From Pseudomonadota bacterium (GTDB taxonomy: Bacteria > Pseudomonadota > Gammaproteobacteria > UBA9214), in the NCBI GenBank assembly GCA_039714975.1, contig JBDLIH010000001.1, positions 34,756-98,755 on the forward strand: 64,000 nt of DNA, in the 5' to 3' direction. The notes beneath the pieces were generated by a model. The model was not told the origin of the DNA. It saw nothing but the letters and a program-made list of their open reading frames with translations, and searched no databases. Of the stretch, positions 3,555-44,328 are shown in pieces. The stretch's first letter is position 1. Every line of letters begins with the position of its first letter. Position numbers and translations under genes: made by a program.

Positions 3555-4139
3555 ATGGCACGTCTCATACCACATATAACAGGGATCTTTCTGGTGATCA
3601 TGCTGTTGACCAACCACGCCGCCCGGGCTGCCACCCAGGAACGCCCGGACGCCGATATGCGTGCCAGCCTGATTGCAGCCATCAACTCGAGCGACAGTTT
3701 CGCTGACCGCTTCGATGCCGAGGTCTGGCTGACGGATATGTCCAGCCGTCTGCAAGGCCGTGTAGAAGACCCGGATGAGCGCCTGATGATACTCAGGCAG
3801 GTTCACTACGAGGCCCGCCGTTCAGGTCTTGAACCGGAACTGGTGCTCGCTCTGATCAATGTCGAAAGCAACTTTGATCACTTCGCGATTTCCAGTGCCG
3901 GTGCCCGTGGCCTGATGCAGATCATGCCCTTCTGGCTGGATGAAATCGGCCGTCCCGATGACAACCTGTTCGACATCAATACCAACCTGCGTTTTGGTTG
4001 CACCATTCTCAATATCTATCTGAAACGGGAAAACGGTGACATGCGGCGTGCCCTCGCCCGCTACAATGGCAGCGTCGGCAAGAACTGGTATCCGCGGCGG
4101 ATTTACAAGGCGTTACGCACGACATGGTACCAGCAGTAG
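3555..4139 (+). CDS. Lytic transglycosylase (SLT domain) with signal peptide
   Basis: LALINVESNFDHFAISSAGARGLMQIMP...YNGS: catalytic ES, GLMQ and YN motifs of family-1 SLT. N-terminal signal MARLIPHITGIFLVIMLLTNHAARA. Confidence 0.8.
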   Translation: MARLIPHITGIFLVIMLLTNHAARAATQERPDADMRASLIAAINSSDSFADRFDAEVWLTDMSSRLQGRVEDPDERLMILRQVHYEARRSGLEPELVLALINVESNFDHFAISSAGARGLMQIMPFWLDEIGRPDDNLFDINTNLRFGCTILNIYLKRENGDMRRALARYNGSVGKNWYPRRIYKALRTTWYQQ

Positions 4140-33612: not shown

Positions 33613-34296
33613 ATGCATATCCTGGTTGTCGAGGACGAAACCCGCCTGCGGGAACAACTCAGGAAGCGCCTGCGTGACAGCGGCTACGCCGTCGATGTAG
33701 CGGCCGACGGTGAAGAAGGCCTGTACTATGGCGAAGAATATCCACTCGACATGGCAATTATCGATATCGGGCTGCCGAAACTGTCCGGCATCGAACTGAT
33801 CCGCCGCCTGCGTGCCCGGGACAAGCATTTCCCTATCCTGATCCTGACGGCCAGGGGCAACTGGCAGGACAAGGTGGAAGGCCTGGAGAGCGGCGCCGAT
33901 GATTACCTGGTCAAACCGTTTCGCTTCGAAGAACTCGAGGCGCGCTTGAATGCCCTGCTGCGACGCGCATCCGGCTGGTCGAAACCGGTGCTGGACTGTG
34001 GACCGGTTTCGCTGGACACCGGCAAACAATGCATCACGGTCTCCGGCAGTCCCGTGGAACTGACCGCCTTCGAGTACCGGGTGCTGGAGTACCTGATGCT
34101 GCATGCCGGTGAGGTCATCTCCAAGACCGAATTGACGGACAATCTCTACGAGCAGGATTACGACCGTGACAGTAACGTACTGGAAGTTTTCATAGGACGA
34201 CTGCGCCGCAAGCTGGACCCGGACAACACCATCAACCCCATAGAAACACTGCGTGGCCGCGGTTATCGATTCCGGCTGGAAGCAAACGCCGGCTGA
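33613..34296 (+). CDS. OmpR/PhoB-family response regulator (PhoP-like)
   Basis: MHILVVEDETRLRE...D51-type receiver, winged-helix C-terminus (TLRGRGYRF). 227 aa. Confidence 0.9.
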   Translation: MHILVVEDETRLREQLRKRLRDSGYAVDVAADGEEGLYYGEEYPLDMAIIDIGLPKLSGIELIRRLRARDKHFPILILTARGNWQDKVEGLESGADDYLVKPFRFEELEARLNALLRRASGWSKPVLDCGPVSLDTGKQCITVSGSPVELTAFEYRVLEYLMLHAGEVISKTELTDNLYEQDYDRDSNVLEVFIGRLRRKLDPDNTINPIETLRGRGYRFRLEANAG

Positions 34297-35645
34297 TGCA
34301 TTCCCTGCACAGTCGACTGCTACTGGCTGCTTCCCTGGTACTTGCCGGATTCCTCGGCGCAACCGGTCTCGCGCTCGACAAGGCCTTTCGTGTCAGTGCC
34401 GAGGCCGCCATGCAGGACCGCCTGCAGTCTCATGTCTACGCCCTGCTCGCTGCTGCAGACGAAGATGGGGACGGCCGCATGATCCCGGCAGATGAGCTAC
34501 CGGAGCCACGTTTTTCGAAACCGGACTCAGGTCTGTATGCTGTTATCAGCAACCACGACAGTGAACCGCTGTGGCACTCCGGTTCACTGACCGGCCGGGA
34601 CTTTGACCTGGGGGAACAGCAAAAACCCGGTGAGCGCCGCTTTAACCGGCTTGCCCGTTCGGGCATGCAACTGTATGCCCTCGCGTATGGCGTCGCCTGG
34701 GAAGACTATGCCGGTACGGAATCACTGTATACGTTCACTGTGGCAGAAGACACCTCTGTGTTCCAGGCAGAGATTGACAGTTTCCGCTCCACCCTGTGGC
34801 GCTGGCTTGGCGGCATGGCACTGGTGTTGCTGCTCGCGCAGGGTTTCATCCTGCGTTGGGGCTTGCGGCCACTGCGGACCGTCACCGCCGACCTGCAACA
34901 GATCGAACAGGGCCGCACTGACCGCCTTGACGGACACTACCCCAAAGAACTCACCGGCCTGACCTCCAGCCTGAATTCCCTGGTCGAACACAGCAAGGCA
35001 GTACAGGTCCGATACCGCAACAGCCTCGATGACCTCGCCCACAGCCTGAAAACACCTTTGGCCATTTTGCAGTCCAGTGATGCAGACGACCGCAGCGACC
35101 CGGGTGACAATCACGCCCTGGTCAGGGAACAGGTGGAACGCATGGATGAAATCATCAGCCATCAACTGCAACGTGCCGCCGTATCCGGCCGGACCACACT
35201 GGCCAAACCGGTGCCGGTCAGCAAGGTCGTGGAACGGCTGGTGCGCTCCCTCGACAAGGTGTACCGGGAAAAACACGTGACGGTTGAGCTGGAACTGGAT
35301 CCGTCAGTCACCTTCACCGGCGACAAGGCCGACCTGACGGAGATCCTGGGTAACCTGCTGGAGAATGCCTACAAGTACTGTCACCATGCGGTGCGGGTCA
35401 GCGTGAGCACTGATCAACAGGCCGATGGCGTTGAGATCAGAATCGAAGATGACGGCCCGGGCATAACACCTGAACAGGTCGACACACTCCTGCAACGCGG
35501 CAGGCGCATGGACGAGTCAATACCCGGCCAGGGCATCGGCCTGAGCATGGCCAACGAGATTATTACCGTGTACGGCGGTCAACTGGTATTTGCTGCCAGC
35601 CCTCTGGGGGGCACCTTGTTGCGGGTAATATTCAACGATCAATAG
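34296..35645 (+). CDS. Sensor histidine kinase (PhoQ-like)
   Basis: Two TMs flanking a periplasmic domain, HAMP, H-box LAHSLKTPLAIL, N/G boxes NLLENAYKY...DDGPGI...GQGIGLS. 449 aa. Confidence 0.88.
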   Translation: MHSLHSRLLLAASLVLAGFLGATGLALDKAFRVSAEAAMQDRLQSHVYALLAAADEDGDGRMIPADELPEPRFSKPDSGLYAVISNHDSEPLWHSGSLTGRDFDLGEQQKPGERRFNRLARSGMQLYALAYGVAWEDYAGTESLYTFTVAEDTSVFQAEIDSFRSTLWRWLGGMALVLLLAQGFILRWGLRPLRTVTADLQQIEQGRTDRLDGHYPKELTGLTSSLNSLVEHSKAVQVRYRNSLDDLAHSLKTPLAILQSSDADDRSDPGDNHALVREQVERMDEIISHQLQRAAVSGRTTLAKPVPVSKVVERLVRSLDKVYREKHVTVELELDPSVTFTGDKADLTEILGNLLENAYKYCHHAVRVSVSTDQQADGVEIRIEDDGPGITPEQVDTLLQRGRRMDESIPGQGIGLSMANEIITVYGGQLVFAASPLGGTLLRVIFNDQ

Positions 35646-35759: not shown

Positions 35760-36158
35760 TCAATGCATCGGCGACAGGCTGACATTTACTGGCATCTGCT
35801 TACCAGGATCGTAAGACATCCGGGTGGTCTCCGTCTCCCTGCCATAACGATAGGTCACCCGATAAGCACTAATGTGTTCACGGGCACGTTGTTCTGTGAC
35901 GTTTCTGCAACGGCGCTGTTGCTGCCACAGACGTGCCTGACTTCGGATATCCTCACCGATGGTCGCCGCGACCCCGTTAAACTCACGCGCCGAACTGTCC
36001 GGTTCCGTGCACACCCGGCGTGTGACCGGCTCATAGCGTGTCTCAATAATCGGCTCCACGTTCAGCACCGGGGCAAAGGCCTGGTATTCAACGGCGTTTG
36101 CGAAACTGCTTATGCAGCTGGTAAATAACAGGATCCCTAGCAGTATTTCAGTTTTCAT
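35760..36158 (-). CDS. YMGG-like lipoprotein paralog (shares C-terminal motif with 32751..33278)
   Basis: ATG 36158 with AGGAAAG RBS (the track M1 is TTG). Signal/lipobox LLFTSC. C-terminal YRVTYRYGRETETTRMSYDPGKQMPVNVSLSP parallels RVGYRVKYRYEGQTYYTETTEHPGKFIPVRVRVSP of the upstream paralog. Confidence 0.6.
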   Translation of the reverse strand: MKTEILLGILLFTSCISSFANAVEYQAFAPVLNVEPIIETRYEPVTRRVCTEPDSSAREFNGVAATIGEDIRSQARLWQQQRRCRNVTEQRAREHISAYRVTYRYGRETETTRMSYDPGKQMPVNVSLSPMH

Positions 36159-36234
36159 TTGTCTTTCCTGCAATTAACCCCTTCGCGCCTTGCAGGCGCG
36201 AACAAAGATTGCCTGTAATTTTCATTTGCAGCAT

Positions 36235-37029
36235 TTATCCAAATCCCATCTTGCCGAGCAACTGCTGCCCCCTGCTCCGCTCAGCCTCATTGGCATACAA
36301 CATCACCACGTCGAAACCGCCAGCCGCTCGACGAAACCAGTCCAGGCGCAACTCGCCGAATCCGGGCTGCAGCCGGTCAACAAAGGCGGCCGCGCGGTAG
36401 GGACGGGAAAAATGGATAATGAACAGGCGACCCTGTCCCGAATAGCGTTGCCCTGGAGCAGCACGACCTGCCTCGCTACGACCATTCAGGACGTAATCAA
36501 GATGCCGCATGATGTAGGCGCTGTACCAGACCGCACCTTCCGGCAAGCGCCCACCGGAAACAGGAATCCGTTCAGGTCCGTAATTATAGGCCGCCAGGGT
36601 GCGATTCAGATCGCCATGATAGCGTTGCTGCAATTCCTTCAGGTAGCGCGCACCTGCATCAACATTAGTACAGGGGTCCAGCACCTCGGACAATCGCTCC
36701 AGACCCAGGTGTTTTGCCGTGCCGGGCCAGAGTATCTGCATCAGCCCGTAGGCATTGGCCTTTGAACGGGCCATTGGTTTGAAATCACTCTCACCCCTGG
36801 CAACGGCCAGTAACAGGGTTTCCGGCAGGTCGTGAGCAATCGCCGCGCGACTGAAACACTGTGCGTATGGAAATTCCAGCGCCGGTTGGGTCTGTTGTGC
36901 AGACTTCGCATACGTCTGCCAGCGTGCTTCCAGTACCCGACTATCAATCGACGGATCTGTTTTTGCGTCAACCGAGATAGCCCGCAGCAAACCCGCACAG
37001 AGTACCACTGTCAATGAATGCCGCATCAT
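36235..37029 (-). CDS. Lytic transglycosylase (SLT domain) with C-terminal SPOR-like domain
   Basis: Signal peptide. ARGESDFKPMARSKANAYGLMQILWPGTAKHLG...AAYNYG (SLT catalytic motifs). C-terminal about 80 aa (GRLFIIHFSRPYRAAAFVDRLQ...FDVVMLYANEAERS) resembles the SPOR fold. Last gene of the seven-gene operon. Confidence 0.7.
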   Translation of the reverse strand: MMRHSLTVVLCAGLLRAISVDAKTDPSIDSRVLEARWQTYAKSAQQTQPALEFPYAQCFSRAAIAHDLPETLLLAVARGESDFKPMARSKANAYGLMQILWPGTAKHLGLERLSEVLDPCTNVDAGARYLKELQQRYHGDLNRTLAAYNYGPERIPVSGGRLPEGAVWYSAYIMRHLDYVLNGRSEAGRAAPGQRYSGQGRLFIIHFSRPYRAAAFVDRLQPGFGELRLDWFRRAAGGFDVVMLYANEAERSRGQQLLGKMGFG

Positions 37030-37031
37030 GA

Positions 37032-37562
37032 CTACTCCAGCTCCAGTCCGGTGACGTCCTCAATTTGAGCGACCATTGCCTGTCGCTCACCGTCATCCCG
37101 GTAACTGAAGACCACCTGGTAATTTTCCGGCCCCTCGCTGATCACTTCCACGGGCACCCCGGTGGCCAGTGTCAGGCGTCGTGCAAACCCCTGTGCGGCC
37201 CACTCACTCCGGAAGGGACTCCAGACCAGGTAATGTGATACCTCCGTGGCCTCATTGCGGTAGGCCGTTTCGTAGCTTGCCATGGATTGATTCCATGACT
37301 GCGGTGTAATCTCAATGTCATCATCGTCAACATCCGGCCGGGATTTCTCATCATGGCTGCTGGCATCGGCAGCCGGAATTACCACGTCCCCAATGACGAC
37401 ATCCTCTGCCGGTACCGGTCCGACGGGTATATCTGCTGCGCTGCTGACGGTCAGCTGTACCGGCACCTGTACTGATGATGGAGACATACCGGCACCCAGA
37501 GCCAGTAAAAAGATGGCCAGCATCAGCAATGCACCCACAAGCATTCCAATTCCCCGTGTCAT
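37032..37562 (-). CDS. SPOR-domain membrane protein
   Basis: Start ATG 37562 forms an ATGA overlap with the stop of the upstream lipoprotein gene. TM helix, acidic linker, C-terminal SPOR domain (YLVWSPFRSEWAAQGFARRL...YQVVFSYRDDGERQAMVAQI). Confidence 0.65.
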   Translation of the reverse strand: MTRGIGMLVGALLMLAIFLLALGAGMSPSSVQVPVQLTVSSAADIPVGPVPAEDVVIGDVVIPAADASSHDEKSRPDVDDDDIEITPQSWNQSMASYETAYRNEATEVSHYLVWSPFRSEWAAQGFARRLTLATGVPVEVISEGPENYQVVFSYRDDGERQAMVAQIEDVTGLELE

Positions 37563-38995
37563 GGCAGTCGCCTCGCTGTCCATACCGTGTGATCAGGGTT
37601 CGACGCAATCAGGCGGTCAAGCCTGTCCAGCCATTGGTCGCGGTTTTCAGTGCCTGTGTGCAGACCACTGACATCACTGCAGGCATCGGGCACGTCGCTC
37701 AACAGCTGGCTGAATTGCCGCCGCTGTTCCACACCCGTGACGGCAATGGCATAGACCGTTGGCCAATCGGACGACGTGAAACGTGATTCAGGAAACCGGT
37801 ACGCATGTCTACCCGGGTGTGACTGCACGGTGGACGTCGTGTCACAGGCACCGGATAGTTGACTAATACCGTCTTTGCTACCGTGTGCAATCACAAATAC
37901 CTGCCCGGCCTGCCCGACATCCACTTCCAGTACCGGGCAACCGCGCAAGCCGTCGCTGCAACCGTCACGATAGGCATTACTGCTTGCGTACCGCACCAGT
38001 TCCATGCGGCTTATGGTCGGCGTCATGCCGCTGTTTTCCTGTACCACGCTGTGCGTGCCGGGACTGTTGGGGCTATTGCCGGCAGGCGGGATACGGACGT
38101 AGGTCGCCGTGTCCATGCCGGCAAGGTGTACGCCGGAGTCCCCGGGATGCAGTACCACCCAAACCTGGTAAAGGTCCGGCTGTATCATGTGGGTCTCACC
38201 ACGAAGAACAAGGTTCGCTTGCCGGCCTGCATCGGTCACCTGCACCTCGCGGTAACGTGACAGGTTGTTGCCGATCAGGCCCAGCAGGGTGCGCAGCTGT
38301 GGCTGATCAGAGCTAATCTGATCGACCTTGATTTTCAGGTCTTCCACATCCTGCTGACGTAGCAGGCAACTCAGGTTGTTGGCCAGGTAAGTAGCGGCCA
38401 GGTCCGGCTGTCCGGCACTGAAGGGCAAGACCCTGAGACCCCGCAGTGACTCATCTGTATGCCGCACTTGCAGGGCACGTAACTCACTGCCGGTCAGATT
38501 CCCCGACCAGTGATGACCGAAACCGCTGACCCATTCACCCGCCTTGACATCCAGGGCACGCACCGACACCCGAAAGCGGGCCGTGGCTGTGCGTGTTATT
38601 TCGATACCAATAAAATAACTGGCATCACGGATTCTGCCGCACTGCACCTGGTCCAGCCGACGATGATGTTGCACCTGCTGTTGTTGCGGTTGCCAGGGCA
38701 CGTGGACGCCCGGGATTTTCAGCAGACTGTCCATAAGCTGGTCACGCATACCGCGCGTTAAACCGTCAATATCCGGCTGTATATCATCGCCATCGAGGCG
38801 CACAATAATCACGGGTTCGCCCTTGAAGCGTGGATGCTGGCCCAGTTGTTGCGACACATAGGGTGCGAGCTCGGTAGCCACCCAGTCCTGCAGCAAGGAC
38901 TCTGTGCTGTGTCCGGAACGCAAGGGCGTCTGGCTGCAGCCTGCAGTCAATAGCAGGACCAGTAATGCAAACAGGGTGTGTCGCCCGGTCATCAT
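37559..38995 (-). CDS. Large uncharacterised lipoprotein
   Basis: Start ATG 38995 (M54 of track ORF), 4 nt after the stop of the upstream coiled-coil gene. Lipobox LLLTAGCSQ. 478 aa with no recognisable catalytic motif. Confidence 0.6.
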   Translation of the reverse strand: MMTGRHTLFALLVLLLTAGCSQTPLRSGHSTESLLQDWVATELAPYVSQQLGQHPRFKGEPVIIVRLDGDDIQPDIDGLTRGMRDQLMDSLLKIPGVHVPWQPQQQQVQHHRRLDQVQCGRIRDASYFIGIEITRTATARFRVSVRALDVKAGEWVSGFGHHWSGNLTGSELRALQVRHTDESLRGLRVLPFSAGQPDLAATYLANNLSCLLRQQDVEDLKIKVDQISSDQPQLRTLLGLIGNNLSRYREVQVTDAGRQANLVLRGETHMIQPDLYQVWVVLHPGDSGVHLAGMDTATYVRIPPAGNSPNSPGTHSVVQENSGMTPTISRMELVRYASSNAYRDGCSDGLRGCPVLEVDVGQAGQVFVIAHGSKDGISQLSGACDTTSTVQSHPGRHAYRFPESRFTSSDWPTVYAIAVTGVEQRRQFSQLLSDVPDACSDVSGLHTGTENRDQWLDRLDRLIASNPDHTVWTARRLP

Positions 38996-38999
38996 GGCA

Positions 39000-39968
39000 T
39001 CACTTCTCCAGTACCACCTGACCGTCACTGCGGATGACCAGCACCCCACCCTGCTGCCCCCGTGTCTGTTCTCCCTGCATAAGCAAGGCAATGGCCGCTT
39101 TTGTAGCCACGGGCAATTGCACTCCCCAGACCACGAGGGGCCGGGCGATGCCATCTACCGTGTTTTCAAGACCGTGAATATAATGTTCCGGAACGGTCGT
39201 TGCCGACATCTCATGAAACCATCCCGGGAAAGGGACCGGCATAACGACAGGCCGGCCTGCATCCATCGAGAGGCGCCACGCCTGCTGATCGACCATGCCG
39301 TACAGCGAAACGCTACCCGCCGTGACCAGTCGGTCCAGTGCGGCATCGGTAGCGAAACGCAAGGTAAATCCCTGCTTGTCGGGTACAGGCCTGGCTACGG
39401 GCACGGGCTGGTCTGTATTCTGTTGCGACTGACGCTTGACCGCCGCTATTTCCTCACGGTTATGATCAAGCTGCTCCTGCGTGCTCAGAAGTCGTCCGCT
39501 GAGTTGCTCGGGATTGTGTGCTTGCTGCGCCGAATCCTGTTCGATGTCAGCCAGCGCCTGGCGTCCCTGATCAAGCTGACGGTCCAGATTCTCCAGCCGG
39601 GTTTCGAGTCGGTCGCGCAACTCGCGCGCCTGTTGAGTTTGCCCGGCAAGCTGTACAAGGTGTTTTTTTGAGTCAGTCAAAACCTGCTGCGTGCGGTCCT
39701 TTTCTGATTTCAGTGCCTGCAACTCGGCCTGCAGTTCCCGCAGCTGTTGCTGCTGCGCCCGGATTTCCTGCCGTATCCTTGCCGCCTGTAAGACCAGCGC
39801 CGGTTTACCCTGCTCCTGCACCGGAATACCTTGCACCAGCGCAAACACCGCCATCAGACACAGTCCGATAATTGACATGAAGCGCATGACATCCGTTTGC
39901 AGGGCATCGGTATCACTGCCTGCAGCAGAGGCTGATAAAAATCTTGCATGTCGACGGCGCCGGATCAT
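39000..39968 (-). CDS. Single-pass membrane protein with long coiled-coil (uncharacterised; partner of MotA/ExbB-like channel)
   Basis: Start ATG 39968 overlaps the stop of the MotA-like gene (ATGA). TM MRFMSIIGLCLMAVFALV, then about 130 aa of heptad-rich coiled coil (LRELQAELQALKSEKDRTQQ...), then a globular C-terminal domain. Confidence 0.6.
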   Translation of the reverse strand: MIRRRRHARFLSASAAGSDTDALQTDVMRFMSIIGLCLMAVFALVQGIPVQEQGKPALVLQAARIRQEIRAQQQQLRELQAELQALKSEKDRTQQVLTDSKKHLVQLAGQTQQARELRDRLETRLENLDRQLDQGRQALADIEQDSAQQAHNPEQLSGRLLSTQEQLDHNREEIAAVKRQSQQNTDQPVPVARPVPDKQGFTLRFATDAALDRLVTAGSVSLYGMVDQQAWRLSMDAGRPVVMPVPFPGWFHEMSATTVPEHYIHGLENTVDGIARPLVVWGVQLPVATKAAIALLMQGEQTRGQQGGVLVIRSDGQVVLEK

Positions 39969-40630
39969 TGCTCTTCCTGCAAACCACAGGGCGTGCTGCT
40001 GCGTGCACTCGCACAGTCGATAGACTCGCGTATATCACTGAGCAATGCCTCCACCCGGTTGGCGTGGTGCTGTTCCTGTTCCTCGTAGTAGCGACTCAGC
40101 CGGGTACCCAACAGCGAACTCTTGGTCACCCGCATCACGTAGCCGCCAATGCCACCCACGATGGTGGTCGTCAGCGCAGTCAGAATGCCGCCTTCCACCA
40201 AACGCTGCAGCACGGCAGAGGCACCGGCTTCCGCGGCCGCATCTGTATCACCGAGTGCAAACAACAGGGCACTGCGCATACCGATCGCGGTCCAGATTAC
40301 GCCAATACCAAAGAACAGACTGGTCCACACATCGTTCAAATGCTCGAGCTGACTGATCTCATCGAGTGGGCGGTTGTCGTCCAGCCATTGTTTCAAGGTC
40401 CGCAGACTGTGGATATACAAGCCCAGGGTGATACCGAAAGGCAGCACGGATAACCCCAGATTACGGCGGCTCCACTCAAACAGCACCTGAACCTGTGGCA
40501 CTTCGAGAACGGATACCGAGATGAGCTCGAGTACTGTCAGCAGGTACACCACCACCAGGCCGGTGATAAAGCTGAGCATCATACCCAGCAACATGCCGTT
40601 GAAAAAGCCGCGATCCTTCAGCCGTTTCAT
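39965..40630 (-). CDS. MotA/TolQ/ExbB proton-channel family protein (orphan, no ExbD/TolR/MotB partner nearby)
   Basis: 221 aa, 4 predicted TMs. The last two (LNDVWTSLFFGIGVIWTAIGM and GGILTALTTTIVGGIGGYVM) match the conserved channel helices of the MotA_ExbB family (GLLGTV.GM / A.ITT..GL pattern). Confidence 0.65.
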   Translation of the reverse strand: MKRLKDRGFFNGMLLGMMLSFITGLVVVYLLTVLELISVSVLEVPQVQVLFEWSRRNLGLSVLPFGITLGLYIHSLRTLKQWLDDNRPLDEISQLEHLNDVWTSLFFGIGVIWTAIGMRSALLFALGDTDAAAEAGASAVLQRLVEGGILTALTTTIVGGIGGYVMRVTKSSLLGTRLSRYYEEQEQHHANRVEALLSDIRESIDCASARSSTPCGLQEEQ

Positions 40631-40636
40631 TGTTGC

Positions 40637-41194
40637 TTACTCAATCGGCCCACAGGCCTCGCAGGTGGCCTCCAGTACCAGTTCAGTTTCCTGGTAAAGG
40701 TTACTGGCACGTGTATAGTTGAGCCGGTCGACACTGATCCTGAGCAGACCCTGCTCCTTGTCAGCCAGTTCCCGGTTCATGTCACGCATGACCTCGGACT
40801 GCTGCGGGCAGGTCTGTGCGCAGACACTGTAATCACTCACCAGGGACACGTACTTGATACCAAAATAACGGTTATAGATTTCCCGCGCCTGACGCTTGCT
40901 CAACAGGCCGGCATCATTTGCCCACAACAGGAAGTCGCTGAAACTGGCCTTGTTTTCCTTTTTCGGGTCACCCTCTGCAATCGTCAGCAGGCGCTGGAAA
41001 TAGGCATCGAACTCATGTTCGCAACCGGTTTCCAGGTCAAAGCGTGCAGCACTGATGGCGTGTTCCAGGTTCGGCCCCTCCGGCAGGCTGCAGGCCGTTG
41101 CCCTGGTTGTATTACTGCTACAGGCCGCCAGTGAGGTCGTGATGACAGCCAGCGTGAAGAGTCCGGTCAGTTTTGTTTTCATTGATGCGTTCAT
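40637..41194 (-). CDS. Uncharacterised Cys-rich lipoprotein
   Basis: Lipobox SLAACSS. 185 aa with 8 cysteines including a C-terminal CEACG. No family recognised. Confidence 0.5.
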   Translation of the reverse strand: MNASMKTKLTGLFTLAVITTSLAACSSNTTRATACSLPEGPNLEHAISAARFDLETGCEHEFDAYFQRLLTIAEGDPKKENKASFSDFLLWANDAGLLSKRQAREIYNRYFGIKYVSLVSDYSVCAQTCPQQSEVMRDMNRELADKEQGLLRISVDRLNYTRASNLYQETELVLEATCEACGPIE

Positions 41195-41218: not shown

Positions 41219-42058
41219 TCACATTTGCAGGGCACTTTCATAACCGCTGTCGGCCGGTCCGGCGGGTGGAATCGCCATCGGAATGACATGGGGTTCTTCA
41301 CCAAACAGGATGCCCTTGACGCCGGCCACCACTTCCTGCATTTCCGGGGTAATGGTCCCGAAGGACTGGTTAAGCTGCTCCATCAGGGTTGCGCGGGCAA
41401 TCTCTTCCCGGGTACGTGCAATCAGGCTGGAGGTTTCCTGCATGTCGAGATAGATATCCGAGGCAATCACAGCCAGTGAGGAATTGGTCCTGCCACCGGA
41501 GCGCGCCACCAGCTTGTAGTATTGGCTAAACCGGTCACTCAGCCGCATACCGGAGCGCCCGCGCAGCGACGGCTGACTGGCAGTGGCCGATTGACCGGAC
41601 TCCTCACCAATCAACAGTTCCTGCAAGGTCCAGGACGTTTTCTTCTGACCCAGCTCCTTGCGAATGCGCTTCTCAAGACTGGAAGATGTGGCATTCACCG
41701 CAGTTTCCATCTCCGGCAGCCTGGCTGCCATAACATCCAGCATTTCGAGATAACTTTTTCCGAGTTGCCTGGCGATACGTTCACAGCCGGGATCACCTTC
41801 ATTTCCCTCGCATTTGCTTTCCAGGTAAAGCTTTTGCTGTTCATCCAGCTGGCCGATGACGGCCTGCAATCCGGTTTCCATCTCCGCTGCAACATTGCCG
41901 GTATGCCTGATTTCCTCCAGCACAGTCGTCGGGAACAACTTGATAGTCGGTGCGGTCGAACTTGCATAAGCGGCCACCGGCAGTAACAGACACCCGGTCA
42001 GCAGCATTCCGAGAAATTGCTGTGTACCTTTTCGTTCACAAATTATTGCTGTAATCAT
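41219..42058 (-). CDS. Uncharacterised secreted protein (first gene of seven-gene operon)
   Basis: Start ATG 42058 with AGGAGG RBS (M14 of track ORF). Signal peptide MITAIICERKGTQQFLGMLLTGCLLLPVAAYA. Helical, no family recognised. Confidence 0.5.
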   Translation of the reverse strand: MITAIICERKGTQQFLGMLLTGCLLLPVAAYASSTAPTIKLFPTTVLEEIRHTGNVAAEMETGLQAVIGQLDEQQKLYLESKCEGNEGDPGCERIARQLGKSYLEMLDVMAARLPEMETAVNATSSSLEKRIRKELGQKKTSWTLQELLIGEESGQSATASQPSLRGRSGMRLSDRFSQYYKLVARSGGRTNSSLAVIASDIYLDMQETSSLIARTREEIARATLMEQLNQSFGTITPEMQEVVAGVKGILFGEEPHVIPMAIPPAGPADSGYESALQM

Positions 42059-42370
42059 TGGGATCCCCTCCTTGCAGTTATTGATTTCATGGTTCACCTC
42101 GATGCCTTCATGTCCCTGTCTTTACGAGCTTTAATATAGGCAAGTGTTCCTGAACAGAACCTGAATGACGATGAAAAGACTGACAGTAATTGTCAACGAG
42201 AAAAAAAAGGCCGCGTATAGAGGCAACCGGCAACGGGAAGGAGACTTCAAGCAAACGACACTGGCAGAGAAAACCGTGTCTGGGAATATGAAGGGGCGTC
42301 TCCCGTCTTTTAGTAAATTCAGCCAGGCACGATTCCATAGTGCTATTCTATCTGATGCTGTCAAACACAA

Positions 42371-43342
42371 TTGCTCAAAGCTTATTCCCTCCGTCACCTT
42401 TTATCCCTATCATTCACCGGTACAGACAACATACCCGGGCGCATAGAATTGAGAAAAACTGTCGTATTTATACTTTCATCCAACTACAGCGGCTCACACT
42501 TCCTGTCGCTGTTAATCGGCAGCCACTCGCATGCAATGCACCTGGGTGAAACCCGACGACTTGCCTCATCAGGCAGCCGGGTTGCAAGCAAGGAAGAACC
42601 CCGATTTTGCTTCGTCTGTGGCAGCCATCAGGAATGCAGCCTGTTCAGGGGGATACAGGAAGTACCGCTTGAGGTGATTTACAGCCACCTTTTCATGCGT
42701 GCAAAGTCAGACACCAGTGTACTGGTTGACACTTCAAAAAAAACCGCATGGGCGCAGCAGTTTGAGAATAACCCTGATTATCGAATACTTTATATCCACC
42801 TGGTAAGGGACCCGAGAGCACTGGTACGCAGATGGTCACAATCCTACACAGACTTTACCGACCGGTTGAAACAAAGAAAAAAACAGTTAACAAAACGTCC
42901 GGCACTGGCATTTGCCCCGCAATGGAAGATCTATACTCACAAATGGCTGCACCAGAACAGGAAAATAACCGATTTTCTGAGCACAAGAGGAAGACAGGGA
43001 TACATCGTCTCCTACCATGACCTTGCAGCCTCAACACACAGTACACTCGCAGAACTGATGCAATGGCTCGGACTTGATTTTGAGCCCGGTCAGATTAATT
43101 ACTGGGAACACGAACATCATGGCACCCAGAAAGCCGACTATGGCTGGATCAACCAAAGTAATAGAACTTTCTTTGACCTGCGCTGGCAGGAAGACATTGC
43201 TGAAGAGGTTCAACAATCCATTGCAACCGACACGGATGTGCTTGCCTATCTCGATGGGATCGGTCTTGCACTTCATGATAACGGTCTGACTCGCATCAGG
43301 GAAGAAAAAGGGACACAGGAATCAAAAGCTTGCCAACCCTGA
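42371..43342 (+). CDS. Sulfotransferase-family protein (Stf0-like)
   Basis: VVFILSSNYSGSHFLSLL (5'-PSB-like P-loop, compare RSGST) and IHLVRDPRALV (3'-PB RDP motif). The track start at 42371 is TTG; the true start is probably the internal TTG near 42449 (LRKTVVFIL). Sits in an AT-richer patch. Confidence 0.55.
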   Translation: MLKAYSLRHLLSLSFTGTDNIPGRIELRKTVVFILSSNYSGSHFLSLLIGSHSHAMHLGETRRLASSGSRVASKEEPRFCFVCGSHQECSLFRGIQEVPLEVIYSHLFMRAKSDTSVLVDTSKKTAWAQQFENNPDYRILYIHLVRDPRALVRRWSQSYTDFTDRLKQRKKQLTKRPALAFAPQWKIYTHKWLHQNRKITDFLSTRGRQGYIVSYHDLAASTHSTLAELMQWLGLDFEPGQINYWEHEHHGTQKADYGWINQSNRTFFDLRWQEDIAEEVQQSIATDTDVLAYLDGIGLALHDNGLTRIREEKGTQESKACQP

Positions 43343-43458
43343 ATGGCCATTCCCACCGGCGGGCATTCAATTACAACTCTTAACCGGCAGCATCCCGGAT
43401 CAAAAACACGATATCGGCGGGGTGTTCTTCGTGACGGCCTTCTGCACTTTCAATCAGC

Positions 43459-44328
43459 CTATTCGAAGACAACCGTCCGGTTTACATAGACCAGGATATT
43501 GTGGTGCAGATGGTGCCATACGGCACGGGCCAGCACCATCTTCTCGAGGTCGCGTCCCTTGCGGATCATATCCTCGACAGAATCCTCGTGGCTGACGCGC
43601 ACCACGTCCTGTTCGATGATCGGTCCGGCATCCAGTTCGGCGATCGCATAATGACTGGTTGCGCCAATGATCTTCACTCCCCGCTCATGCGCGGAGTGGT
43701 AGGGCCGGACGCCGGGAAACGCCGGCAGAAAGGAATGATGGATATTAATGATCCGGTCCGTGTAGCTGTCGATCAGCCCGTCGCTCAGGATCTGCATGTA
43801 GCGCGCCAGTACGATGAAATCGATTTGGTACTGCTGCAGCAGTTCAAGCTGTTTGCGCTCCTGTTCCACCCGGTTCTCCGGAGTGATCGGCAGGTGCACA
43901 TAATCGATACCCAGCCGCGCAGCTGCAGTCTGCATATCGGTATGGTTACTGATAATCAGAGGGATCTCGACCTGCCACTCGCCGGCCTCGTAGCGGGCCA
44001 GGATATCGTAGAAACAGTGCGGCTGTTTTGACACAAACAGCGCCATGCGCGGCACTTCATCCGAGAAATGCAGCCGCCAGTTCATCGAGAAACGTTTTGC
44101 TACAAGGGTTTCAAAATACTCACCGATCTTCCCGTCGGCAATAACAAAATCATGCAGGTCCCATTCGATGCGCATGAAGAAGACCTGGCGCTCGGTATCC
44201 ACGTGCTGGTCCAGATACAGGATATTGCCACCGTTCTTGAAGATGAACTCGGTAATTGATATCACAATCCCCTTCTGATCCGGGCAGTGAATCAGCAGGA
44301 TTGCCGACTTCGGTGTTGTATTGTTCAC
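43459..44328 (-). CDS. purU: Formyltetrahydrofolate deformylase
   Basis: ACT domain ILLIHCPDQKGIV, formyltransferase core IINIHHSFLPAFPGVRPYHSAHERGVKIIGATSHY. Start taken at GTG 44328 (RBS AAGGGAAG) for a roughly 290 aa product. The longer track ORF would overlap the cupin gene. Confidence 0.85.
   Translation of the reverse strand: MNNTTPKSAILLIHCPDQKGIVISITEFIFKNGGNILYLDQHVDTERQVFFMRIEWDLHDFVIADGKIGEYFETLVAKRFSMNWRLHFSDEVPRMALFVSKQPHCFYDILARYEAGEWQVEIPLIISNHTDMQTAAARLGIDYVHLPITPENRVEQERKQLELLQQYQIDFIVLARYMQILSDGLIDSYTDRIINIHHSFLPAFPGVRPYHSAHERGVKIIGATSHYAIAELDAGPIIEQDVVRVSHEDSVEDMIRKGRDLEKMVLARAVWHHLHHNILVYVNRTVVFE

What the first reader, a model, noticed from the sequence alone, without database searches (positions are those of the whole stretch)
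39000..40630. Orphan MotA/ExbB-family channel translationally coupled (ATGA) to a coiled-coil single-pass protein instead of an ExbD/TolR/MotB partner
The 221 aa ORF has the two conserved C-terminal channel helices of the MotA_ExbB family (…FFGIGVIWTAIGM… and …ILTALTTTIVGGIGGYVM…). It is unusually short and has no ExbD/TolR/MotB-like gene, and no TonB/TolA/OmpA-like partner, anywhere in the 64 kb window. Its stop overlaps the start of a protein with one TM helix followed by a long heptad-repeat coiled coil. In known systems (Tol, Exb, Mot, Zor, GldLM, AglRQS) the partner's single TM helix carries the protonatable Asp. Here the candidate partner TM (MRFMSIIGLCLMAVFALV) has no acidic residue, so either the mechanism differs or the true partner is elsewhere.
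Basis: partly seen in the sequence, partly recalled or inferred. Interest (0 to 1): 0.55.

Follow-up and report, generated by a model that had tools for sequence, protein, structure and literature searches.

The report
Hidden MotA/ExbB-like motor pair in envelope operon
Two overlapping genes probably encode a very divergent proton-driven membrane motor whose partner does carry the key aspartate, and they sit in a seven- to eight-gene cell-envelope operon of unknown function that is conserved in hundreds of marine sediment bacteria.

Summary
The ORFs, the ATGA overlap, the single TM helix and the long coiled coil are real. No canonical ExbB/ExbD/TolQR/MotAB/TonB/TolA gene is in the window or linked in 79 of 80 related genomes.

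(1) The 221 aa protein does not pass any MotA_ExbB family model. The similarity is faint but consistent. Profile-profile alignment is in the right register and beats all 380 shuffled controls. The two pore threonines are invariant. The seven best Foldseek hits are all PomA/ExbB/MotA.

(2) The partner is not acid-free.

The pair therefore looks like a new, Pfam-invisible A/B motor family (confidence about 0.6). The B subunit carries its own periplasm-spanning arm, which is a coiled coil or a Pro-rich linker. Its C-terminal domain matches no solved fold.

The pair is embedded in a conserved operon with a secreted protein, two lipoproteins, a membrane-anchored protein and an SLT lytic transglycosylase. 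The family occurs in 337 species genomes (sulfur-oxidising Gammaproteobacteria and Desulfobacterales). What the operon does is unknown.

A published precedent exists for TolQ-like motors whose Asp-bearing partner is not TolR.

The parts
39965..40630 (-). g221: 221 aa, four-TM inner-membrane protein and candidate A (channel/stator) subunit. Predicted TM helices are about 13-33, 58-76, 101-125 and 147-167, with a cytoplasmic C-terminal helix reaching about residue 210.
   Evidence: ORF. AF2 model with pLDDT 73.7 and helices H2-33, H59-84, H89-126, H137-210. 1707 relatives, none with a Pfam domain. 234 clusters at 50% identity.
40130..40336 (-). Channel-core hairpin of g221 (residues 99-167): ...FFGIGVIWT114AIGMR... 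and ...GGILTALT155T156TIVGGIGGY...
   Evidence: Translation. T114, T155, T156, R119, Y164 and N57 are invariant in 79 orthologues. hhalign aligns this hairpin to TolQ 139-186, with T114 on T145 and T156 on T178. The score of 25.3 exceeds all 380 shuffled controls.
39000..39968 (-). g322: 322 aa bitopic protein and candidate B subunit / force transducer. Its ATG overlaps the g221 stop codon (ATGA).
   Evidence: 550 relatives. The start overlaps the g221 stop by 4 nt in most of the 47 loci where a motif search placed the start, and in many of the rest.
39822..39914 (-). Trans-pore-helix region of g322 (residues 19-49): DTDALQTDVMRFMSIIGLCLMAVFALVQGIP. The D26 codon is at 39891-39893.
   Evidence: This is the most conserved part of the protein. 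The motif is present in 76/80 loci. It aligns on the TolR/ExbD Asp.
39399..39803 (-). Coiled-coil arm of g322 (about residues 56-190), followed by a short Pro-rich spacer. Length varies between orthologues, and Woeseiaceae have a Pro/Glu-rich linker in its place.
   Evidence: Heptad periodicity. Whole-segment deletions and KPVIEKRPPPAPA-type repeats in the alignment. Woeseiaceae sequences.
39003..39383 (-). Conserved C-terminal globular domain of g322 (about residues 196-322) with invariant GFxLRF, WFHEMS..TVP.HY and WGVQLP motifs.
41219..42097 (-). g292: secreted (signal peptide), mostly helical periplasmic protein with two invariant Cys. It is the first gene of the operon and among the most conserved (57-90% identity outside Desulfobacterales, about 50% there).
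   Evidence: No Pfam or PDB relative.
40637..41194 (-). g185: Cys-rich lipoprotein. The lipobox is conserved in all lineages, there is no Asp at +2, and a CxxxC motif is nearly invariant.
   Evidence: Only weak SCO1/SenC similarity (5/23 members, best E 0.0017).
37559..38995 (-). g531: lipoprotein of about 478 aa. The real start, MMTGRH...LLTAGCS, lies 4 nt after the g322 stop.
   Evidence: 5 of 25 orthologues match DUF4384 (best E 2e-9). No PDB relative.
37032..37583 (-). g183: N-terminally membrane-anchored protein with a low-complexity acidic/Pro linker and a conserved C-terminal domain of about 75 aa (WSPFRS..AA.GFA.RL...).
   Evidence: It looks SPOR-like by eye, but Pfam SPOR matches only 1/26 members at E 0.079.
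36235..37029 (-). SLT-domain lytic transglycosylase (264 aa, signal peptide).
   Evidence: Pfam SLT PF01464, E 1e-26. Syntenic in 64 of 80 loci.
35760..36173 (-). g137: small secreted protein with a UmoD/PRK11280-like C-terminus. It is a facultative last gene of the cluster, present mainly in the closer relatives.
   Evidence: NCBIfam NF008437 at 2.5e-9 and UmoD at 7.7e-9, both below their cut-offs. Synteny table.

Best explanation
g221 and g322 are the A and B subunits of a very divergent member of the ion-driven '5:2' motor class (MotAB / ExbBD / TolQR / ZorAB / GldLM).

Inferred mechanism:
- Five copies of the 4-TM g221 surround a parallel dimer of the g322 TM helix.
- Protons from the periplasm bind the invariant D26 of g322. 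D26 is ringed by the invariant T114 and T155/T156 of g221.
- Release of the protons to the cytoplasm drives relative rotation of the two subunits.
- Unlike ExbD/TolR, the B subunit is also the force transducer. Its periplasmic arm (a dimeric coiled coil of about 135 residues plus a Pro-rich spacer here, or a Pro/Glu-rich rod in Woeseiaceae) carries a novel-fold head domain outward, towards the peptidoglycan or outer membrane.
- There it presumably engages the co-encoded periplasmic protein (g292) and the lipoproteins (g185, g531).
- The SLT transglycosylase and the anchored g183 remodel or bind peptidoglycan around the assembly.

Shown:
- gene order, overlaps and operon synteny;
- four TM helices in g221 and one in g322;
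- the invariant Asp and Thr residues;
- the variable linker;
- the folded C-terminal domain with no solved relative;
- the lipoboxes and the signal peptide;
- the SLT domain.

Inferred:
- homology to MotA/ExbB;
- the 5:2 stoichiometry;
- proton flow through D26;
- rotation;
- what the head domain binds;
- the cellular role, for which my best guess is an energised envelope or peptidoglycan-associated function analogous in logic to Tol-Pal.
For: (1) Coupling.
- The ATGA overlap is confirmed.
- A 4-nt overlap recurs in most of the orthologous loci where the start could be placed.
- g322 follows g221 in 79/80 loci.

(2) A-subunit likeness.
- hhalign of a 115-sequence family profile against a 16-sequence ExbB/TolQ/MotA profile aligns both helices in register, IGVIWTAIGM with IGLFGTVWGI and GGILTALTTTIVG with PGIAEALIATAIG.
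- P is 0.006 for the full profile and 0.0024 for the core.
- The score is 25.3. Column-shuffled controls give 12.65+-2.37 (max 23.5) and block-reversed controls 14.35+-1.98 (max 20.2). None of the 380 controls reaches the real score.
- Reversed profiles give P 0.1-0.25.
- PF01618 is the commonest sub-threshold Pfam hit among 115 family members (9 members, best E 0.0028).
- The seven best Foldseek PDB hits are PomA, ExbB and MotA chains, and 15 of the top 50 belong to this class.
- The residues aligned on the essential TolQ T145/T178 are invariant in 79 orthologues.
- The predicted topology is N-in with four TM helices, like MotA.

(3) B-subunit likeness.
- There is an R-rich cytoplasmic tail of about 25 residues.
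- The invariant D26 opens the TM helix in a 'DVM' context, as in ExbD.
- hhalign puts D26 on TolR D23 (P 0.02; 2/150 shuffles reach the score).
- The heptad register fits a parallel dimer.

(4) No alternative Asp-bearing partner.
- No ExbD/TolR/MotB is found in the window or in 79/80 loci.

(5) Precedent.
- TolQ-like motors without TolR, whose vWA-domain partner carries the Asp-bearing trans-pore helix, are described in PMC12204202, section 8.
Against: - No curated model recognises either protein. Pfam, NCBIfam, PADLOC and PDB profile searches give no MotA/ExbB or ExbD/MotB hit for the window proteins. NCBIfam gives none for the 115 family members either.
- An exhaustive profile search of 1.84 billion representatives returned only 234 proteins. 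It did not pull in the very large MotA/ExbB family.
- The hhalign probability is only 6-12%.
- All Foldseek E-values are >=0.24, with TM-scores of 0.23-0.31.
- The prolines conserved in MotA/ExbB/TolQ channel helices (TolQ P138, P187) are absent.
- D26 lies at the very edge of the hydrophobic stretch. R29 sits one turn inside it, which is unusual for B subunits.
- No compensatory change was seen in g221 where R29 becomes Ser.
- No complex prediction could be run, so stoichiometry and contacts are untested.
Confidence: 0.6

Rival explanations
1. g221 is an unrelated small 4-TM membrane protein, acting as a scaffold, anchor or simple channel. g322 is a membrane-anchored periplasmic tether or structural protein. 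The resemblance to MotA/ExbB and the conserved Asp reflect helix-packing constraints, not a motor.
For: No curated profile recognises either protein. All the structural similarity scores are individually non-significant. The MotA/ExbB prolines are missing. The family is small and self-contained.
Against: The profile-profile match is in the correct register over two helices and beats all 380 composition-matched controls. The best Foldseek hits are concentrated in one protein class out of 350,542 chains. Thr, Thr and Asp are invariant at exactly the positions that matter in known motors. Translational coupling is conserved.
Confidence: 0.25
2. g322 is a TonB/TolA-type transducer that docks on the outside of a g221 pentamer. 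The Asp-bearing ExbD/TolR-like axle is encoded elsewhere in the genome.
For: The architecture of TM anchor, long helical or Pro-rich linker and globular head is that of TolA/TonB. The alpha-helical versus Pro-rich alternation of the linker mirrors what PMC12204202 reports for TolA domain II.
Against: The TM helix has no His and no SHLS motif, and it carries the invariant Asp expected of the axle. The head domain has no TonB/TolA-like fold. No ExbD/TolR is linked in 79/80 loci. The 4-nt overlap argues for a fixed-stoichiometry pair.
Confidence: 0.08
3. The pair is a Zorya-like or other anti-phage defence module built on a MotAB-like sensor.
Against: PADLOC finds no defence-family hit apart from coiled-coil noise. 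There are no ZorC/D/E-like genes. g221 lacks the long ZorA tail. The cluster is present in 337 species with strict synteny and high sequence conservation, next to housekeeping genes. Nothing was found in plasmids.
Confidence: 0.03

Closest known systems
ExbB-ExbD / TolQ-TolR (Ton and Tol-Pal motors; Pfam PF01618 + PF02472)
   Same: The genes are adjacent and translationally coupled. The A subunit has two consecutive channel helices with a Thr in each (T114 with TolQ T145, T156 with T178). The B subunit is N-in and single-pass, with an Asp opening the helix in a 'DVM' context like ExbD D25. The setting is a cell-envelope operon with lipoproteins.
   Different: Neither protein reaches any family threshold. 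g221 has four TM helices (MotA-like topology) and almost no cytoplasmic domain. The channel prolines are absent. The B subunit has no ExbD-type periplasmic domain. There is no separate TonB/TolA, because the B subunit carries the long arm and head itself.
TPH-vWA partners of TolQ-like motors lacking TolR (Williams-Jones et al. 2025, PMC12204202)
   Same: The logic is the same. A TolQ-like gene has no tolR/exbD next to it. Its single-pass neighbour supplies the Asp-bearing trans-pore helix and is proposed to transduce force directly.
   Different: The head domain here is not vWA and matches no solved fold. The A subunit here is not recognisable as TolQ by profile models. The accessory genes also differ (g292, g185, g531, g183, SLT).
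MotA-MotB / PomA-PomB flagellar stators
   Same: The A subunit has a four-TM, N-in topology. The best Foldseek hits are PomA and MotA. The position of the B-subunit Asp relative to the helix start resembles MotB D32. The pair is associated with peptidoglycan-active proteins.
   Different: There are no flagellar genes nearby. The TM2-TM3 cytoplasmic loop is about 24 aa, against about 100 aa carrying the torque-generating charges. There is no OmpA-like peptidoglycan-binding domain and no plug motif was identified.
GldL-GldM / PorL-PorM (type IX secretion and gliding motor)
   Same: The B-type subunit is a dimeric, periplasm-spanning shaft. A conserved Arg lies in the B-subunit TM region (R29 here, Arg in GldM). 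The A subunit is minimal.
   Different: GldL has two TM helices and a TM Glu, whereas here the acid is on the B subunit. There are no T9SS genes. The organisms are Proteobacteria and Desulfobacterota, not Bacteroidota.
NCBIfam NF006543 (PRK09039.1-2, 'peptidoglycan-binding protein')
   Same: It gives a weak match (E 7.6e-4) covering residues 5-182 of g322, that is the N-terminal anchor plus the coiled coil.
   Different: The score is far below the cut-off (19 against 305 bits) and is probably driven by the coiled coil. The C-terminal halves are not matched.

Membership tests
MotA/TolQ/ExbB proton channel family (Pfam PF01618) | Significant match to the family profile | tested here: not met
   The window protein has no PF01618 hit at E<=1. 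9 of 115 family members have sub-threshold hits, best E 0.0028. NCBIfam TolQ/ExbB/MotA models give no hits. A PDB profile search finds none.
MotA/TolQ/ExbB proton channel family (Pfam PF01618) | Two consecutive C-terminal channel helices with the conserved Thr pair (TolQ T145/T178, ExbB T148/T181) | tested here: met
   hhalign register. T114 and T155/T156 are invariant in 79 orthologues. The alignment score exceeds all 380 shuffled controls.
MotA/TolQ/ExbB proton channel family (Pfam PF01618) | Conserved prolines in the channel helices (TolQ P138/P187, MotA P173/P222; the MotA numbering is from my own knowledge) | tested here: not met
   The aligned positions are F/G and G/Y in g221.
MotA/TolQ/ExbB proton channel family (Pfam PF01618) | Fold similarity to solved A subunits | tested here: inconclusive
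MotA/TolQ/ExbB proton channel family (Pfam PF01618) | Pentamer enclosing a dimer of the partner helix (5:2) | not testable with these tools
   Only single-chain prediction was available.
ExbD/TolR (PF02472) and MotB (PF13677 + OmpA PF00691) | Significant profile match | tested here: not met
   No such Pfam or NCBIfam hit. A custom ExbD HMM finds nothing in the window.
ExbD/TolR (PF02472) and MotB (PF13677 + OmpA PF00691) | N-in single TM helix with an invariant Asp near its cytoplasmic end | tested here: met
   D26. The motif is present in 76/80 loci. It aligns on TolR D23 (P 0.02-0.065).
ExbD/TolR (PF02472) and MotB (PF13677 + OmpA PF00691) | ExbD-type or OmpA-like periplasmic domain | tested here: not met
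TonB/TolA force transducers | TM helix with SHLS motif / conserved His that binds the outside of the motor | tested here: not met
   The helix MRFMSIIGLCLMAVFALV contains no His.
TonB/TolA force transducers | Extended helical or Pro-rich periplasmic linker | tested here: met
   Coiled coil plus KP/PA-rich repeats. PE-rich linkers in Woeseiaceae.
TonB/TolA force transducers | TonB/TolA C-terminal domain fold | tested here: not met
Zorya ZorAB | ZorA long cytoplasmic tail and linked zorC/D/E genes | tested here: not met
   The g221 tail is about 50 aa. PADLOC finds nothing relevant. The neighbouring genes are envelope proteins.
TPH-vWA motor partners (PMC12204202) | vWA head domain on an Asp-bearing trans-pore helix | tested here: not met

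The most novel reading that the evidence does not exclude
The whole g292-g185-g221-g322-g531-g183-SLT cluster encodes a previously unrecognised proton-motive-force-driven trans-envelope machine of sediment sulfur-cycling bacteria. It would be a new 5:2 motor family whose B subunit is itself a rotating, periplasm-spanning shaft. The shaft would end in a new-fold head that works on outer-membrane lipoproteins and/or peptidoglycan. Five further protein families without any annotation would act as its components.
Probability: 0.4. Interest if true: 0.75.

Novelty: new variant of a known kind. Interest (0 to 1): 0.6.

Why it matters
Ion-driven 5:2 motors power flagella, nutrient import, outer-membrane maintenance, gliding and secretion, and one phage-defence system. 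Each newly found family has revealed a new way of delivering inner-membrane energy to the envelope.

This family escapes every curated model, so standard surveys of MotA/ExbB homologues would miss it. It is nevertheless strongly conserved in at least 337 species that matter in marine sediment sulfur cycling, including tubeworm symbionts.

It would add an example in which the axle subunit is also the periplasm-spanning force transducer. It would also give a handle on six conserved protein families of unknown function. MAGs assigned to the cultured taxa Sedimenticola thiotaurini and Motiliproteus carry the operon, which may make it experimentally tractable.

Tried and rejected
- Direct family assignment: Pfam, NCBIfam, PADLOC and PDB sequence searches on all eight cluster proteins gave only SLT and weak UmoD-like hits.
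- The urea-transporter hit of g221 (E 1e-4, below cut-off) is shared by only 2/115 members and is rejected as chance.
- hhalign against single E. coli TolQ, ExbB and MotA sequences was uninformative. A 16-sequence reference had to be assembled from E. coli and plasmid records.
- A scan of viral contigs for ExbB/TolQ relatives, meant to deepen the reference, found none.
- The exhaustive representative search did not bridge to MotA/ExbB, and its weak tail was not visible.
- The most divergent family members are still typical family members, so an intermediate-sequence search was not attempted.
- I looked for a change in g221 compensating for R29S in Motiliproteus and found none.
- SPOR identity of the g183 C-terminus is not supported by Pfam.
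- g292, g185 and g531 profiles gave no PDB relatives.
- tblastn of g221 and of the g322 N-terminus against plasmids found no match.
- The look-up of the window protein's own contig was not on record.
- A literature search for related orphan motors beyond PMC12204202 and PMC12505986 found nothing specific.
- One shuffle run timed out and one failed for a format reason before the valid run.
Full report
**What is there**

On the minus strand, 42097-35760 holds eight co-directional ORFs with minimal spacing:
- g292 (41219-42097);
- g185 (40637-41194);
- g221 (39965-40630);
- g322 (39000-39968);
- g531 (real start at 38995, ends at 37559);
- g183 (37032-37583);
- an SLT-domain protein (36235-37029);
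- g137 (35760-36173).

The g221 stop and the g322 start overlap as CAATGATCC, a true ATGA overlap. The g322 stop is followed after 4 nt by the ATGATG start of g531. A terminator-like hairpin lies upstream of g292, at 42228-42209. The finding's coordinates and its description of the two ORFs are therefore correct.

**Are they real genes, and how widespread are they?**

- g221 has 1707 relatives in the 90%-clustered database. The 120 best are 76-100% identical, nearly all are 219-222 aa, all are labelled hypothetical, and none has a Pfam domain.
- g322 has 550 relatives.
- An exhaustive profile search of 1.84 billion 50%-cluster representatives returns only 234 proteins, so the family is compact.
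- In one-genome-per-species contigs, 337 stretches encode a relative. The carriers are:
  - Gammaproteobacteria: Sedimenticolaceae, Chromatiales, Ectothiorhodospiraceae, Thiogranum, Woeseiaceae, Motiliproteus, and the Lamellibrachia and Escarpia tubeworm endosymbionts;
  - Desulfobacterales.

**Context**

- tblastn of the eight window proteins against the 80 retained loci shows the order g292-g185-g221-g322-g531-g183-SLT in almost every locus long enough to show it, including Desulfobacterales.
- g137 is found mainly in the closer relatives.
- Two complete genomes (L010, L022) have only the first four genes at this site.
- No other window ORF is co-conserved, apart from a convergent two-component system in the 13-15 closest loci. 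An SLT paralogue at 3555-4139 simply cross-hits the SLT gene.
- g292 has a signal peptide.
- g185 and g531 have lipoboxes in all lineages.
- The SLT domain is solid (E 1e-26).
- g292, g185, g531 and g183 have no informative Pfam or PDB relatives.

**Is g221 a MotA/ExbB protein?**

By curated models, it is not.
- Pfam, NCBIfam and PDB profile searches give no such hit.
- The large MotA/ExbB family was not recruited by the exhaustive search.

Several independent weak signals nevertheless agree.
- Among 115 diverse family members, PF01618 is the most frequent sub-threshold Pfam hit (9 members, best E 0.0028).
- I assembled 16 ExbB/TolQ/MotA reference sequences from E. coli K-12 and plasmid records. 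hhalign aligns the family's two C-terminal helices in register with TolQ 139-186. P is 0.006 overall and 0.0024 for the core.
- The real score (25.3) exceeds all 190 column-shuffled controls (12.65+-2.37, max 23.5) and all 190 block-reversed controls (14.35+-1.98, max 20.2). Reversed profiles give P 0.1-0.25.
- The aligned residues include the two threonines that are essential in TolQ/ExbB (established knowledge). Here they are T114 and T156, and both are invariant in 79 orthologues.
- The AF2 model (pLDDT 73.7) has four TM helices with MotA-like N-in topology and a long TM4 that continues into the cytoplasm.
- Foldseek against 350,542 PDB chains puts PomA, ExbB and MotA at ranks 1-7. Each E-value is >=0.24, however.

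Evidence against:
- the hhalign probability is only 6-12%;
- the conserved channel prolines are missing;
- the cytoplasmic domain is minimal.

I put remote homology, or at least equivalence of the channel core, at roughly 0.65-0.7.

**The partner**

The ATGA-coupled start is M1, and the N-terminal 27 residues are conserved.
- The segment DTDALQTD26VMRFMSIIGLCLMAVFALVQGIP is the most conserved part of the protein.
- The motif LQ[TSV]D[VI]M[RS]F occurs in 76 of 80 loci, from Gammaproteobacteria to Desulfobacterales.
- ExbD reads ...PFIDVMLVLL... and TolR ...PLLDVLLVLL.... hhalign places D26 on TolR D23 (P 0.065 and 0.02; 2 of 150 shuffles reach the score).
- The protonatable Asp expected of a B subunit is therefore present and invariant.

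Downstream of the helix, residues 55-190 form a continuous heptad repeat. Whole segments of it are deleted in some homologues, and a KPVIEKRPPPAPA-type repeat of variable copy number follows. In Woeseiaceae the coiled coil is replaced by a Pro/Glu-rich linker.

**Is a canonical partner linked elsewhere?**

- HMMs of ExbD/TolR and ExbB were run against all six-frame ORFs of the window and the 80 loci. They find a canonical pair only in L045, 3 kb away from the cluster.
- tblastn of E. coli and plasmid TolA, TonB, MotB, TolR, ExbD, TolQ, ExbB and MotA finds nothing in the window.

**Interpretation**

The best reading is a divergent A/B pair of the 5:2 motor class, in which the B subunit doubles as the periplasm-spanning force transducer.

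This has a published precedent. Williams-Jones et al. 2025 describe TolQ-like genes without tolR whose vWA-domain neighbour carries an Asp-bearing trans-pore helix surrounded by the Thr ring (PMC12204202). The present family differs in three ways:
- its A subunit is invisible to profile models;
- it has a different, unmatched head domain;
- it has a fixed set of accessory envelope proteins, including a lytic transglycosylase.

The phylogenetic survey of MotAB relatives (PMC12505986) relies on detectable homology and is unlikely to have included it.

The cellular function is unknown. The combination suggests an energised envelope or peptidoglycan-associated machine, analogous in logic to Tol-Pal. 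That combination is an inner-membrane motor, a long arm, a secreted protein, two lipoproteins lacking Asp at +2 and therefore probably outer-membrane lipoproteins, and a peptidoglycan-cleaving enzyme. This last step is inference only.

**Verdict**

- Novelty: a new variant of a known kind.
- Interest: 0.6.

Noticed in passing
window 3555-4139 (+): A second SLT-type lytic transglycosylase paralogue (194 aa). It cross-hits the operon's SLT gene in 38 related loci.
   Followed up: partly
window 40637-41194 (-); L001 11457-14393: The lipoprotein g185 has a nearly invariant CxxxC motif and weak SCO1/SenC similarity (5/23 orthologues, best E 0.0017). In genome CP070821.1 the four-gene core is followed directly by a 978 aa multicopper oxidase. 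A copper or redox link is conceivable but untested.
   Followed up: partly
window 33613-35645 (+): An OmpR-type response regulator and a sensor histidine kinase are convergent with the operon. They are syntenic with it in the 13-15 closest loci only.
   Followed up: partly
L058, L061, L066, L071 and other Woeseiaceae loci, directly downstream of the g221 orthologue: The partner protein has a Pro/Glu-rich (PEPVPEPV-type) linker in place of the coiled coil. This parallels the helical versus Pro-rich alternation reported for TolA domain II.
   Followed up: partly
L010 (CP070821.1) and L022 (CP070738.1): Two complete MAG chromosomes carry only g292-g185-g221-g322 at this site. The g531, g183 and SLT genes are absent locally, which suggests that the minimal module is four genes.
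   Followed up: no
window 39003-39383 (-): The partner's head domain has an invariant His/Glu/His-containing patch (WFHEMS..TVP.HY) and a WGVQLP motif. This could be a binding site or a metal site.
   Followed up: no
L043, L048, L078 (Motiliproteus): The otherwise invariant R29 of the partner helix is Ser (DVMSFMAILGFC). No matching change was seen in the channel protein.
   Followed up: yes
alignment A3 (one member among P0245-P0389): One family representative also matches CrcB fluoride-channel models at about 1e-24 to 1e-26. This is probably a gene fusion or a mis-called ORF.
   Followed up: no
window 42001-44000, ORF 42371-43342 (+): A local GC dip (0.50 against about 0.56) lies just upstream of the operon. 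It contains a 323 aa ORF that is not conserved in any related locus, possibly a recent insertion.
   Followed up: no
L045 2220-3389: This is the only related locus with a canonical ExbB-ExbD pair within 8 kb of the cluster (Sedimenticola thiotaurini MAG). It is not adjacent to the cluster.
   Followed up: partly
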